Shown in pieces: positions 36,001 to 42,000 of a DNA stretch of 42,969 bases. Position numbers: made by a program. Within the stretch, counting starts at the first letter, position 1. Each line of letters begins with the position of its first letter. Source of the stretch: Candidatus Omnitrophota bacterium (GTDB lineage Bacteria; Omnitrophota; Gorgyraeia; Gygaellales; Profunditerraquicolaceae); contig JAHIOW010000027.1 of NCBI GenBank assembly GCA_018895075.1, positions 1-42,969 on the forward strand, written 5' to 3'.

Positions 36001-39000
36001 GGCCTGTACAGATACCTAATATAGGTAATCTACCAATTAAACTTTTGGTATTCTCCGCCACTTCTTCTAAGCTTACGTCTTCTTCCGGGCCGCTAGAGAT
36101 AATTAACCCGTGAGGCTTAATCTTCATAATCTCATCGGGCTTAGTATTATAAGGCAGCAAATTTAAGACAATCCCTAGAATCTCTAACTGCCTGATAATA
36201 CTATTGGTTATGCCTAAATCTAACCCTGCTATTTTATATTTTGCTTTTTTACTGCCGATAAGCGTAGGTTTATCTACGGAAATCTTCTTTATAAAATCTC
36301 TGGCCTGGCTCTTTCTAAAGGCCTCTATTTTAGATAATAGTTCTTTTGAGCCGCGGTTAGACGTAGAAATTATACCGAACATCTCGCCGTTATTGCGCAG
36401 ATGCACTGCTAGGGTACGTGTATCTACTCCGTTAATCCCTGCTACACCTTGTTCTTTAACAAAGGCATCAAGGCCAGACTTTGCCTGCCAGTTGGAATAC
36501 ATGCGAGATTTTTCCTTAATTGCCAGACCGCTAATCCAACAGCGAGAAGACTCATTAAACTTAGGGCTAATGCCATAATTACCGATTAAGGGGTAGGTAG
36601 GTACAAGTATCTTTCCGGCATTAGCCGGATCGGTCATCATCTCCTGATATCCCACTACCGCGGTATTGAGAATCACCTCACCAATTACCTCTTTTTCTGA
36701 CCCGAAACCTTCACCATTGAAACTTGTTCCATCCTCTAACATCAAAACTGCTTTCATTATCACTCTCCTTATGTTAAGAGCTCTCTTACCTTCTTTATTG
36801 CTTCTTCTACTGTCTTTACCTTAATTACGCCTTTTATGTCCCAAGAATTGAGACTGATTACTGGTATACCAAACTGTATACAATAGGCAATCTCGGAAAG
36901 CGTCCCTGCTTCCCCTGGAAGCGCTACTGCTACATCAGCGCTTTTAACTACCAAGACATTCCTGGCTAATCCCAGGCCTGTAGGAATAACTATATCTACA
37001 AAAGGATTGGCATCATTTTTATTGTAACTGGGTATAATGCCTATGGTTAGCCCATCCCCTACCTTAAACCCCTTACAAACCGCCTTCATTGTTCCACTTA
37101 AACCCCCACAAACAAGAATATCTACCACTTTCGCCAGATTTTTACCTAAATTATGGGCTATTTGCTCCACTTCCCTACTACAACTATGCCCACCTATAAC
37201 ACTTACTATCTTCTTGCGCATTTACTTATCTCCCAATCAACCCTTATCTTGTCGCGGGACAGTCATTCTTTACAAGGGACTGTCCCCGAAGGGGACTGTC
37301 CCTTGCCGTCCCTGCTGGCAACGCTTTGTTCTATCTTTAGATAAATGCGCCTGGACAGAGTCGAACTGTCACACATGGCTCCGGAGGCCATTGCGCTATC
37401 CATTGCGCTACAGGCGCGTGATTTCCTTATTATTAAAACAAGCTTAACTGCTCTTCGTCTTTACCATGCCTTTCTTGTGGGTCAAAGATGGCAATCTTAC
37501 CATATTCACCATCAAAACCCGCCTGGATATTAACCTTGCCTTGCCGCACCCTTAATATACCTTCTGCAACCCGAGGAGGCATTCCTTTAAGTAAATCTTC
37601 CTTGGTCGCTTTAAGCAGGATTTCAAACTCGGTACCAAACTTAGCTATCATACTACGATAATCTCTCTCTACAGCCATTGAACCCTTACCTACACCTTTT
37701 GCCCCGGCAATAATCTCATCCAAAGGAATAAGATTTTTATAAGGGATAAAGTCGGCAGGCATGTATCCTTCTGGCCGATCCGCCAACTGCTCTACCCGGT
37801 TCATCACGCCCACAGTTACCGGCTTGCCACATTTAGGGCACCTGCCTTTATTTTGTTTAGTTTCTCCGGGAGATAATCGCATACCACAAAGCCGGTGCCC
37901 GTCATAATGATACTTGCCTTCTTCGGGGAAAAACTCAACGGTATATAAGAACCTCTTTTTATCTTTGGTCTTTAGAACCTCTCTGATGGTTTTATAATCC
38001 AACGCGCAATCAAAGACATTTGCCTCGCGGCCTATCTTAGAAGGTGAGTGGGAATCGCTGTTTGATATCAAGGTAAATTTATCTAAAGCGGATAACCTCC
38101 AATTTAAGGGAGGGTCGCTTGAAAGGCCCGTTTCTAAAGCAAATATCTTTGGTGTCTGTTTTTCAAAGCAATCTTCGATGCGGTCAAAACCTGACATAGA
38201 ACCGAATAAAGAAAACCAGGGTGTCCAACAATTATGAACCGTGGCGAATTCACAAACATAAGAATTATCTTCATCTACTTCTAAATTATAAACAACACCA
38301 TTGTATCTTTCTTTAGAAATATCCCTAACGGGTAAATATACATATTTATTATCCATCCAGCCATGTCTTGTTGACAATTTTGTTCTAAACTTCTTAAATA
38401 CGCTATCTTTTAATAAATTAAATTTATCTTCAAAAAAAGAAAGGTTATTAAAGTGGAACATATCGTGCTGGGCTAATATTTCTCTGGTTCCTATAAAATG
38501 CTTGCCACGATTCTTATGTTTTTTCGTAGAATCTAAGCCAATAGACGGAATGATGCCCAACCGTAAAAATAATACTTTCATTTGATTCATTAATGGTCTC
38601 GATGATGTGTATCCTTTATCCCCACGCCACCAGCCTTTAATAGTTTCTACCTGTTTTTCAAGCGGCAAATACAGCATCCAATTCGGTAAAGATTTAGAAA
38701 ATGCTTTTTTATTTCTTGTGTTTATATAGAAGAGTTTACTGAACAGGTTATATAAAACCTTTGAATAAAATATCAGCTCTATTCCTTTTATATCCTTTTT
38801 AATCTGAATTTTCGATAATTCTATGCCAAATATTTTTTGAATTAAACTTATTACATCATTTATGTATTCTTCTTCGTCTTCTAAAAAACAAAATGAGATG
38901 CAATCTCTACTATTTGTATACCCTTCAGAAATAAAATATCCGGCCAAGCGACAGAAATCTTTATCTATTTCAATAATATTTTTAACAAAGCGTGTTCGGC

Positions 39001-42000
39001 TACCTTTATAAGCAATTTTCCCTTCCTTAAAAACAAATTTTCCTTTTAATAGCCTGCTAATCTCTATTCTCGTATTGTATCTAATTTCATTATTGAACCG
39101 CGGAAAAACCAAAGCATCATTTATTTTTATATCCTTGGCCTGAACCCACTCTGGCTTATATTGCATAAAGTATTTTTGCTTGCAGCCTTTATTTTTTAGC
39201 TGAGAGCACCTTGGCATGCAAAAAGTCCCTCTTGAGGCGCAGTATTTATGTGTTTTGATTATATAGAACGGGTGCTCTGCTGTGGTTTTAATACCTTCTC
39301 GGAAATAATAAGGTTTGATATGAAAAATCTCGCCATTATAATCTCTTTTAAATAATTCTGTCACGCTTCTTAGCCGCATTCTATGAGTATATACATAGTC
39401 CTTTTTTGAAATTTCTTCTATTATTTTTAATCCATTGTTGGTATGCACAAATGTCCCGGGTAAAAGACAATGTGCTGGTACAACCATACAATTCTCATCA
39501 ATATCAAAGATAATCCGCGCCAGTTCTTCGGCATCCATGCCTAATATCGGCCGGCCGTCGGAAGCTAAATTTCCGTAACGGGCAAGTGTTTCATTTATTT
39601 TATCAGTAGTTTTAAAGGAGGGGCTGAACACCATATTATGGATACGGTAACCGCGTCCGTTTTTAGAATAGATACTGCTGATCTCTGCGGTTAAGATAAA
39701 ATAGACATTCCGATATTTAAACAGGCCGTTCCCCAAATCTTCTAAATGCGCCTTTACTTCCTCCAGCCACAGATGATGCGTAAAATCACCTGTCCCCATC
39801 AGGGTTACGCCCTTTAATCCTGCCCATTCCGCAATATGGGCAATATCCATATCCCTGCTTGTTGCCCGGCTGTATTTAGAGTGAATATGAAAATCAGCAA
39901 TAAATTTCATTTTGAAGCGGCGTAAACAATCTCACCGCCTAAAATTGTGTATTCTACAATGCCTTTTAATTTCCGTCCAAGAAAAGCCGAATTTCTCGAT
40001 TTCGACCGGATGCTATCTTTATCCACGAGCCATTCTCTATCAGGTGAGACTACAATAAGGTCTGCTGTTTTTGCGGCTCTTATTGTACCTTTATCTATTC
40101 CTAAAATCTGGGCGGGGTTCAATGCCAATTTCTTAACCAGTTCTGTCCAGTCTAATATTCTCTTATCCACAAGCTCAGTGATACTTACTGCCAAGAGGGT
40201 CTCTAAGCCGATTGTCCCAAACTCCGCGCGCTCAAACTCTATATCCTTTTCATTATCAGTATGCGGTGCGTGGTCAGAGGCAATAACATCAATTATCCCT
40301 TTTCTTAATCCTTCTTTTATTGCCTCTGCGTCTTTTTTGGTTCTTAAGGGCGGATTTACTTTCATGTTTGTGTTATAATCCAGCACCTCTTCCTCGGTTA
40401 AGGCGAAATAATGCGGCGCGGTCTCAGCAGTAACCTTTATACCTTTTTGTCTTGCCCGGGCAATTATATCCACCGATTCAAGACAGCTGACATGGGCAAT
40501 ATGTATACGGGCACCTACTTTTGCGGCAAGTCTGATGTCGCGTTCAACCCTTTTATATTCGGATTCTCTGGATACCCCTCTTAACCCCAGCCGCGTTGAA
40601 ACAACTCCTAGATTTATTACGCCATTACGACTAAGCCCCTTATCTTCACAGTGGCAGATTGTCAATATATCTGTATCTTTGGCTTTTTTCAGCGCCTTTA
40701 AGAATAAGTCTTCGGTATCTACGGAAGAGCCGTCATCAGAAATAGCTACTGCACCCTGTTTTTTAAACATAGGGATGTCGGCGAGCGCTTGACCCTGACG
40801 GCCCTTGGTAATGGTAGCACTGATAAAGACATTGGTGTGGGCGGTTTTTTTGATTATATCTTTTAGTAACCCCATTGCCTCTTTAGAATCAATAGCGGGG
40901 TGGGTATTCGGCATGGCCAAAACCGAGGTCACCCCGCCTTTTAATGCCGCGCTTGTACCGGTTGAAATCGTTTCCTTGTCTTCTCTACCTGGCTCTCTTA
41001 GATGTACATGCATATCTACCAGGCCGGGCATAACTATTTTTTCGGTGGCATCGACTATCTGGTCTGCCTGCACCTTAAGATTCTTAGCAATCTTGGAAAT
41101 CTTGAAATCCTCTACAAGGATATCCGAGATTTCATTTAATTTATTGGCCGGATCAACGACCAGGCCGTTTTTTATCAGTATTTTCATATTTTTTATCATG
41201 CCCCTGGGACACCAAAAACAATACCGCCATCCTTACGGCAATGCCATTGGTGACCTGCTCTAATATCACCGAATTTAGCCCATCAGCAACTTCGCTGGAT
41301 ATCTCAATGCCGCGATTAAGCGGACCAGGATGCATCACCAGAATCTTCTTTTTTAACTTTGCTATTCTTTCTTTCGTAATACCGAAATTCTGGAAATATT
41401 CTATGTGGGTAGGAAATGCCGCCCCTTCATCCCGCTCAAACTGCATCCTTAAAACATTTACTGCATCCGCGTTATACAGGGCCTCATCTATATCGTGGGT
41501 TACCGAGACCCCCGTTTGTTCTATGCCCGGGGGGATGAGCATCCGGGGTGCACAAACTATTACCTTGGCGCCTAACTTGGTTAAGCCCCAGATATTTGAA
41601 CGCGCCACCCTTGAATGGGCAATATCCCCTACTATAGCCACATTGAGGCCTTGAATCTTGCCTATCTTTTCCTTTAAGGTAAAGATATCTAACAGCGCCT
41701 GGGTGGGATGTTCATGCCAACCATCCCCGGCATTAACTACACTGATATCCAGATGGCGCGCAAGCAGCTGGGCTGCGCCTGAACTATTATGCCTTAACAC
41801 AACAATATCTGCCTTAAGTGCCTGGATGTTCCTGCCTGTATCTACCAAAGTCTCGCCCTTGCGTACACTAGAGGTCTCCACGGCAATGGTAATCATATCT
41901 GCTGATAATCTCTTTGCTGCCACCTCAAAGGAAATCCGGGTGCGTGTGGAAGGCTCATAAAATAGATTCACCACCGTCCTGCCGCGCAGTGCCGGAACCT

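What a model noticed while it worked through the whole genome (the two positions that open the first line are those of the whole stretch)
37433..39910. EndoQ replaces uracil-DNA glycosylase, ExoIII and EndoV across a bacterial order
g00195, unannotated because of an intein, is an endonuclease Q, present in every order genome searched, while UDG, ExoIII and EndoV are missing. Gygaellales repair deaminated bases through EndoQ nicking alone, without uracil base excision. This would be the first bacterial lineage in which EndoQ is the core rather than a backup uracil and hypoxanthine repair enzyme.
Evidence so far: Both exteins match solved P. furiosus EndoQ (E 6e-50; HxH, E, H, D-x-H and zinc-finger motifs aligned; call 162). 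TIGR00375-family match in 31 of 31 order genomes. UDG superfamily 5 of 31; ExoIII 0 of 5, EndoV 0 of 5, NucS one weak hit in 5; MutS 4 of 31. dUTPase, EndoIV, PolI and LigA are present. MJ1434-like protein is no substitute (PMC2926615 abstract, call 158).
(Added by a program. Inside this text positions count along the whole contig: contig position 1 is position 1 of the stretch shown here. "Call 12" and the like, gene names such as g00115 and contig names such as C1 are that model's own, and its searches are not shown. The text may have been shortened before it was handed on; [...] marks where a part breaks off. The agent that wrote the report below was given it as the finding of a first reader that could run no searches.)

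Follow-up and report, generated by a model that had tools for sequence, protein, structure and literature searches.

The report
EndoQ stands in for uracil glycosylase
This gene encodes an intein-split endonuclease Q, a DNA-nicking repair enzyme. In two unrelated groups of small-genome bacteria it is kept in most genomes that lack the usual uracil-DNA glycosylase, and in one group the two genes alternate at the same chromosomal spot, so it is likely their main uracil-repair enzyme, a role so far proposed only for some archaea.

Summary
The ORF is an EndoQ with a 413-aa intein; every residue needed for PfuEndoQ activity is kept. In 151 order genomes EndoQ is in 146, UDG in 33, ExoIII in 3 and EndoV in 11. 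Outside the order UDG is in 140 of 159. The UDG loss is real: the ancestral glycosyltransferase-UDG-priA locus lacks UDG on unbroken contigs in 6 of 6 UDG-less genomes.

EndoV is rare across the phylum, so it was not replaced. dUTPase was found in only 52 of 151. The order is not the only case: sister orders share the loss, and in a Patescibacteria class (121 genomes) 44 have only EndoQ, 58 only UDG, 12 both and 7 neither. That split holds in tree-independent pairs (p about 0.0005), and UDG sits in EndoQ's slot beside polX in 2 of 10 pairs.

Best reading: EndoQ-initiated incision repair displaces UDG repair (0.72); activity is untested. The idea was proposed for UDG-less methanogens in 2018. 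The scan noted the intein and the pyr-operon position before on other DNA; one word search found no note of the UDG swap.

The parts
37433..39910 (-). endoQ gene, 825-aa precursor (412 aa after splicing)
39470..39910 (-). N-extein (residues 1-147): PHP metal ligands H8, H10, E76, H91, H147 and R120 (PfuEndoQ H8, H10, E76, H84, H139, R114)
   Evidence: alignment; site list; roles from PMC5961232 section 16
38231..39469 (-). 413-aa intein (C148-N560) directly after the H139-equivalent zinc ligand, with a weak LAGLIDADG-like domain; GC 0.32
   Evidence: the same site is filled in G128, G049, G040 (68-70% identical) and G142 (cut by a contig end)
37433..38230 (-). C-extein (561-825): W565, pocket G595-L596-S597, D619, H621, R628, K666, Y667, zinc site H672/C675/C691/C694, Y803
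37436..37450 (-). C-terminal QLSLF, a predicted sliding-clamp-binding motif
   Evidence: strict QL[SD]LF ends 54 of 108 EndoQs, a looser form 101 of 108; this is the only one of 723 long G000 ORFs ending in the strict form. The consensus is recalled; PMC4858679 (passages) notes such motifs in bacterial EndoQs
39907..41199 (-). pyrC (dihydroorotase), overlapping the endoQ start (ATGA); the conserved upstream neighbour
   Evidence: a pyrC homolog lies within 1.5 kb in 38 of 39 EndoQ loci
36769..37221 (-). TIGR00725 (LOG-like) gene downstream; a TIGR00725-like gene also lies near the EndoQ/UDG slot in Patescibacteria
31585..32385 (-). fpg/mutM glycosylase in the same gene run
   Evidence: TIGR00577, over cut-off
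6898..7545 (-).

Best explanation
The gene encodes an intein-split endonuclease Q with all known catalytic and base-pocket residues intact, and in genomes that lack uracil-DNA glycosylase it is likely the enzyme that starts repair of deaminated bases. SHOWN: family identity; residue conservation; clean absence of the family-4 UDG from its ancestral slot; EndoQ kept in most UDG-less genomes; reciprocal distribution and in-place exchange with UDG in a Patescibacteria class. INFERRED: the intein splices out. EndoQ, probably tethered to the sliding clamp by its QLSLF tail, flips U (mainly U:G), hypoxanthine or an AP site into its pocket and nicks 5' of it. PolI (PolX is also encoded, and neighbours the slot in Patescibacteria) then replaces the damaged strand and ligase seals it, with no glycosylase step. 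In Omnitrophota EndoQ is an old resident of the pyr gene run and co-existed with UDG; UDG was then lost in the branch holding this order and some sister orders, and EndoQ went from about 40% to about 97% retention. In Patescibacteria the two enzymes have traded places many times.
For: Identity and residues. Ten PHP and pocket residues plus R201, K243 and Y244 are invariant in 108 of 108; the W144 equivalent is W in 102 and H in 6. The same set is kept in 8 of 8 Patescibacteria EndoQs. Order: EndoQ 146/151, UDG 33/151, EndoQ in 114 of 118 UDG-less genomes. Outside the order: UDG 140/159; EndoQ in 59 of 140 UDG-bearing and 16 of 19 UDG-less genomes. Empty slot: glycosyltransferase-UDG4-priA in 14 of 18 UDG-bearing relatives; glycosyltransferase abutting priA with no UDG in G000, G008, G012, G024, G273 and the one-contig genome G285. 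No UDG in G000 by unfiltered profile, tblastn and phmmer searches with family-1, family-4 and divergent queries (best E 0.016 or worse). Patescibacteria class: both 12, EndoQ only 44, UDG only 58, neither 7, against 27 expected if independent. Of 15 tree-independent pairs that differ in EndoQ, UDG goes the opposite way in about 12 and the same way in 0.2 (median p 0.0005, range to 0.012). A family-4 UDG fills the permease-[slot]-polX position in G330 and G391, where sister genomes G426 and G333 have EndoQ. EF-G GC3 is not lower in EndoQ-only genomes (0.46 against 0.42, p 0.14), and UDG-less Omnitrophota loci span GC 0.38-0.55.
Against: No activity, splicing or expression data. In Omnitrophota the two genes are not exclusive: 59 of 159 outside and 32 of 33 UDG-bearing order genomes have both, and the loss may be a single event, so it gives no independent replicates. 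Some genomes have neither gene (4 of 151, 3 of 159, 7 of 121); the four in the order are 65-89% complete, the rest were not examined. Four of the best-assembled UDG-less genomes also show no dUTPase of any of three families, which should load DNA with U:A that EndoQ might cut. The Patescibacteria tree is one gene by FastTree; completeness was requested at 90% or more but not shown (EF-G was found in 121 of 121). The two in-place swaps are not shown to be independent (AU p 0.34), and 8 of 10 pairs had UDG elsewhere. ExoIII, EndoIV and EndoV were not searched in Patescibacteria. PMC6202378 (passages) found the archaeal distributions of these enzymes not associated.
Confidence: 0.72

Rival explanations
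1. Uracil tolerance: these lineages lost UDG, often with dUTPase, and carry uracil in their DNA. EndoQ is kept for inosine, AP sites or defence against uracil-DNA phages rather than for chromosomal uracil.
For: The archaeal-type dUTPase was found in 52 of 151; 84 of 151 have neither it nor UDG. G008, G012, G024 and G285 have no hit to PF00692, PF08761 or PF22769, while 4 of 5 UDG-bearing relatives hit PF00692 (two weakly). Genomes lacking both dut and ung are described as possibly viable and uracil-rich (PMC5122711 passages). An antiviral role for bacterial EndoQ is suggested in PMC8307549 (passages).
Against: It does not explain why EndoQ tracks UDG loss or swaps with UDG at one locus. dUTPase and UDG are not lost together in the order (both 18, UDG only 15, dUTPase only 34). 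PfuEndoQ cuts U/A worst and U/G well (PMC11354406 passages), so tolerating U:A and repairing U:G by EndoQ can both hold. There is no GC collapse.
Confidence: 0.14
2. Another enzyme removes uracil (the MJ1434-like HhH protein, EndoIV, or an unrecognised glycosylase), and EndoQ is only a backup.
For: The MJ1434-like protein and an EndoIV-like protein are each in 5 of 5 panel genomes. SMUG2-type proteins, Vsr and NER were not searched. 33 of 151 have some UDG-fold gene.
Against: MJ1434, three orthologs and a bacterial EndoIV had no uracil activity when made in a delta-ung host (PMC2926615 abstract). The panel's HhH-GPD proteins are only Nth-like and MJ1434-like, with no MutY/MIG or AlkA type among the 8 matches (two scanned). 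AAG is in 0 of 5. 27 of 44 EndoQ-only Patescibacteria genomes have no HhH-GPD protein at all.
Confidence: 0.09
3. The pattern is an artefact of incomplete assemblies, search sensitivity or shared ancestry.
For: G000 is 88% complete. The tool uses a loose first look. All TIGR00375 matches are below the curated cut-off. Kin are not independent.
Against: The same search finds UDG in 140 of 159 relatives and 13 of 14 controls. The slot is empty on unbroken contigs, one in a one-contig genome. Incompleteness would raise the 'neither' class, which is instead depleted (7 against 27). Tree-independent pairs agree.
Confidence: 0.05

Closest known systems
Endonuclease Q of Pyrococcus furiosus (PDB 5zb8, 7k30-7k33) and the EndoQ of Bacillus pumilus / B. 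subtilis
   Same: PHP nuclease, zinc and helical domains; all residues that mutagenesis showed to matter; a clamp-binding tail. The Bacillus activity is known to me only from passages in PMC6202378 and PMC5961232.
   Different: The first zinc ligand is His, not Cys, in 108 of 108. An intein sits at the active site. The gene lies in the pyr gene run. B. subtilis also carries UDG, ExoIII and EndoV (control rows), whereas 109 of 151 order genomes carry none of the three.
UDG-less archaeal orders (Methanococcales, Methanopyrales, Methanobacteriales), where EndoQ was proposed to act instead of UDG (PMC6202378, passages)
   Same: UDG lost and EndoQ kept; M. jannaschii is the one control genome of 14 with EndoQ and no UDG.
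   Different: Bacterial hosts. Here there is comparative support (empty slot, repeated reciprocal change, in-place swap), whereas that paper reports no association among the archaeal distributions.
ExoIII (Mth212) uracil incision repair of Methanothermobacter thermautotrophicus
   Same: A glycosylase-free nick 5' of uracil in an organism without functional UDG (PMC6202378 introduction).
   Different: Unrelated fold; ExoIII is nearly absent here (3 of 151).
Mja Hyp-1 intein of MJ0043
   Same: Said by earlier scan notes to be the same element at the same site.
   Different: Not verified here (one search found no paper). A second site, inside the G-L-S pocket, is filled in G097, G029, G079, G415 and G424.

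Membership tests
Endonuclease Q | Full-length homology to PfuEndoQ (PHP, zinc and helical domains) | tested here: met
   E 5.6e-50, both exteins; intein-free homolog, residues 5-402, E 3.9e-60
Endonuclease Q | Metal ligands H8, H10, E76, H84, H139, D193 plus R114 and H195 | tested here: met
   all present, invariant in 108 of 108; roles
Endonuclease Q | Deaminated-base pocket G169-L170-S171 and W144; DNA contacts R201, K243, Y244 | tested here: met
   roles
Endonuclease Q | C4 zinc site | tested here: inconclusive
   H-x2-C...C-x2-C in 108 of 108; His can bind zinc (general knowledge), but it is not the C4 form
Endonuclease Q | TIGR00375 score over the curated cut-off | tested here: not met
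   237 bits against 326.6; 0 of 151 over. The Patescibacteria homologs and one of three control hits also fall short, so I read this as a narrow model; the family call rests on the structure match and the residues
Endonuclease Q | Nicks 5' of U, hypoxanthine, xanthine and AP sites | not testable with these tools
   needs the purified enzyme
Cis-splicing LAGLIDADG intein | Cys1, His-Asn end, +1 Cys/Ser/Thr, and exteins that read as the intein-free homolog | tested here: met
   intein-free L001 has Cys at the +1 place
Cis-splicing LAGLIDADG intein | Active homing endonuclease; splicing in vivo | not testable with these tools
   the LAGLIDADG_3 hit is weak (E 1.1e-5)
Non-orthologous displacement of UDG by EndoQ | Complementary distribution that survives correction for kinship | tested here: met
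   Patescibacteria class; in Omnitrophota it is one-sided only (UDG loss goes with EndoQ retention)
Non-orthologous displacement of UDG by EndoQ | Same function in vivo (complementation) | not testable with these tools
   needs an ung complementation test
Sole deaminated-base repair route | No other uracil- or inosine-acting enzyme | tested here: inconclusive
   109 of 151 lack UDG, EndoV and a strong ExoIII hit; AAG, NucS and HhH types were checked in 5 genomes only; SMUG2-type, Vsr and NER not searched

The most novel reading that the evidence does not exclude
Large bacterial groups (a branch of Omnitrophota and about a third of a Patescibacteria class) live without any uracil base excision. 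EndoQ and UDG are interchangeable clamp-tethered parts that swap at one chromosomal slot, and members that also lack dUTPase keep U:A pairs in their DNA while EndoQ selectively removes mutagenic U:G: a natural uracil-tolerant but deamination-proof chromosome.
Probability: 0.3. Interest if true: 0.8.

Novelty: new variant of a known kind. Interest (0 to 1): 0.6.

Why it matters
UDG is treated as the near-universal guard against cytosine deamination, and how UDG-less organisms cope has been an open question addressed mainly in archaea. These data point to EndoQ as a full substitute in bacteria, where it had been seen as a scattered extra. Sister genomes that differ only in which enzyme fills one slot turn the idea into a direct test (complementation, mutation spectra). 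It also predicts different vulnerability to uracil-DNA phages and their UDG inhibitors, and offers mesophilic EndoQs for deamination assays.

Tried and rejected
NucS as a substitute: the weak hits in G000 and G024 are about 130-aa YraN-type proteins.

A hidden UDG in G000: none by unfiltered hmmsearch, tblastn or phmmer.

UDGs inside the order as the inherited gene: 15 of the 33 were examined. Five are family 4, nine a divergent group below the family-4 cut-off, and one a longer divergent protein. They grouped apart from most of the syntenic UDG4s on a quick tree, so they look re-acquired; this was not tested formally.

Weak Patescibacteria UDG hits: G339 is spurious and G317 a frameshifted fragment. 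Dropping the two below cut-off (G339, G373) left the pair test unchanged.

Independence of the two in-place swaps: not shown (AU p 0.34).

A mutational signature of UDG loss: none in EF-G GC3; this is a weak test.

SMUG2/DUF4918: the accession I tried is not in the library, so untested.

Expression: no RNA holder listed; this is no evidence either way.

No structure or complex prediction was run: the sequence match to solved EndoQ is already clear, and clamp-motif binding would pass by likeness.

Literature searches listed no paper on EndoQ replacing UDG in bacteria, or on Omnitrophota uracil repair. The library lacks most subscription papers. The EndoQ-DNA structure paper was not held. The B. 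pumilus EndoQ paper with its bacterial survey was not seen and may bear on novelty. No supplements or figures were read.
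Full report
THE GENE. The ORF at 37433-39910 (-) encodes 825 aa. Residues 5-156 and 561-809 match PfuEndoQ (E 5.6e-50); an intein-free order homolog matches end to end (E 3.9e-60). The gap is a 413-aa intein, C148-N560, with +1 Cys, placed right after the zinc ligand equal to Pfu H139. PMC5961232 (passages and section 16) lists the residues whose mutation lowers or abolishes activity. All are present. In 108 aligned sequences (the window's exteins plus 107 distinct intein-free homologs, picked by motif and length from 119 loci) H8, H10, E76, H84, R114, H139, G169, L170, S171, D193, H195, R201, K243 and Y244 are invariant, and W144 is W in 102. 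The first zinc Cys is His in all 108. The tail is QLSLF; a loose clamp-motif form ends 101 of 108. The motif consensus is recalled; PMC4858679 (passages) shows PCNA binding by the archaeal tail and notes clamp motifs in bacterial homologs. The gene overlaps pyrC, and a pyrC homolog is near in 38 of 39 loci across the phylum sample, so EndoQ is an old resident, not a recent recruit.

THE ORDER. In 151 genomes: EndoQ 146 (102 of 103 high-quality), UDG superfamily 33 (27 of 103), ExoIII 3 (1 over cut-off), EndoV 11. 109 have no UDG, EndoV or strong ExoIII hit, and 106 of these have EndoQ; EndoQ is in 114 of 118 UDG-less genomes. In five-genome panels: AAG 0 of 5, no true NucS, EndoIV-like 5 of 5, PolI 5 of 5; the HhH-GPD proteins are Nth-like or MJ1434-like. 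G000 also encodes a PolX homolog and a protein 50% identical to a ligase-like ORF of a relative (the LigA label is recalled).

IS THE UDG LOSS REAL? Outside the order UDG is in 140 of 159 genomes. In 14 of 18 UDG-bearing relatives examined, the family-4 UDG lies between a glycosyltransferase and priA. In G000 the two flanking genes overlap on one contig with nothing between them. The same junction is in G008, G012, G024, and in two genomes of other orders, G273 and the one-contig G285: 6 of 6 looked at. Unfiltered searches of G000 found no UDG. So the loss is real and wider than the order. Of 19 UDG-less genomes outside it, 16 have EndoQ, against 59 of 140 UDG-bearing ones (the Fisher p of 0.001 overstates, as kin are not independent). 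EndoV is in 14 of 159 outside the order and ExoIII in 2 of 5 UDG-bearing relatives, so neither is shown to have been replaced.

A SECOND LINEAGE. Homologs at 56-61% identity came from Patescibacteria records. I sampled 121 genomes of the class around one of them (G311; record title Nealsonbacteria). EndoQ is in 56, UDG in 70, EF-G in 121. Both 12, EndoQ only 44, UDG only 58, neither 7, against 27.4 expected if independent. On an EF-G tree of all 121, EndoQ changes state at least 22 times and UDG 31 times. In 15 independent pairs that differ in EndoQ, UDG goes the other way in 11.9, the same way in 0.2, and does not differ in 2.9 (median p 0.0005). In the reverse test 23 pairs give 11.9, 0.0 and 11.1. 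I then compared neighbourhoods in 10 hand-picked pairs of near neighbours. EndoQ usually lies in a run of beta-CASP nuclease, TIGR00725, amino-acid permease, [slot], polX. In G330 and G391 a family-4 UDG fills that slot with no EndoQ remnant, while their neighbours G426 (PolX 77% identical to G330's) and G333 have EndoQ there. Both in-slot UDGs end in a clamp-motif-like tail, as does one other of the 8 Patescibacteria UDG4s listed; none of 18 Omnitrophota UDG4s does. In the other 8 pairs UDG lies elsewhere, and the two swaps may be one event (AU p 0.34). 27 of 44 EndoQ-only genomes have no HhH-GPD protein, which, with PMC2926615 (abstract), weakens the HhH rival.

A COMPLICATION. G000 has an archaeal-type dUTPase, but it was found in only 52 of 151 order genomes with that one query. 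G008, G012, G024 and G285 hit none of three dUTPase-related families; 4 of 5 UDG-bearing relatives hit PF00692. Such cells should misincorporate uracil unless a MazG-type enzyme (not searched) steps in (PMC5122711 passages). PfuEndoQ ranks U/A last among uracil substrates (PMC11354406 passages), so EndoQ may suit a cell that tolerates U:A but must repair U:G. This step is inference.

MECHANISM. Likely: splicing; clamp-tethered EndoQ flips the deaminated base and nicks 5' of it; PolI or PolX resynthesises; ligase seals. Only the gene content, the residues and the distribution are shown.

WHAT IS KNOWN. EndoQ, its bacterial activity and the proposal that it replaces UDG in three archaeal orders are in print (PMC6202378, first part of the text and passages; PMC8307549 passages). 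That paper reports no association among the archaeal distributions. Searches listed nothing on bacterial replacement; a find in a 2026 B. subtilis EndoV preprint gave no mention of EndoQ. The B. pumilus survey was not seen. Earlier scan notes cover the intein and the pyr location; a word search for the UDG link found none.

VERDICT. An ordinary enzyme in an unusual role. New variant of a known kind; interest 0.6.

Noticed in passing
L369:4232-4924 (G330) and L373:4575-5207 (G391), against L368:4593-5867 (G426) and L372:4648-5928 (G333): A family-4 UDG and EndoQ alternate in the same slot between an amino-acid permease and polX in Patescibacteria; the in-slot UDGs carry a clamp-motif-like C-terminal tail.
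   Followed up: yes
G008, G012, G024, G285 (whole genomes); L356:231-743: No dUTPase of any of three families in four well-assembled UDG-less genomes; the order's dUTPase, where found (52 of 151), is of the archaeal type.
   Followed up: partly
L188:972-3299, L189:1114-3441, L190:819-3257, L353:316-2697, L354:276-2702: A second EndoQ intein site inside the G-L-S base pocket, with similar inteins in Omnitrophota and Patescibacteria, suggesting transfer between phyla.
   Followed up: partly
L018-L020, L022-L027: A divergent UDG-superfamily group (motif GQAPG, below the family-4 cut-off) makes up 9 of the 15 in-order UDGs examined; its substrate is unknown.
   Followed up: partly
G229, G298, G204, G199, G224, G254, G272, G201: EndoQ matches inside open frames of about 1000-1100 aa in other Omnitrophota, probably fusions (a helicase fusion is recalled, not checked).
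   Followed up: no
L021:1-840; G036:C7:30609-31052: UDG-like domains in longer frames (280 aa at a contig end; an 816-aa frame), possibly phage-type UDG-polymerase fusions.
   Followed up: no
G000: No Nth was found in G000 or G046, though it is present in three other panel genomes; may be incompleteness.
   Followed up: no
window 168-2890 and 11898-14306: hypE, hypD and a hypF C-terminal half, plus an archaeal-like proteasome-assembly-chaperone family gene (TIGR00162-like, below cut-off).
   Followed up: no
window 20858-27956: V-type ATP synthase operon directly after pyrF, in the same orientation as the pyr/endoQ/fpg run.
   Followed up: no
G000:C72:21785-23071: A reverse-transcriptase-like ORF (YADD motif; group II intron type by recall) near a contig end.
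   Followed up: no
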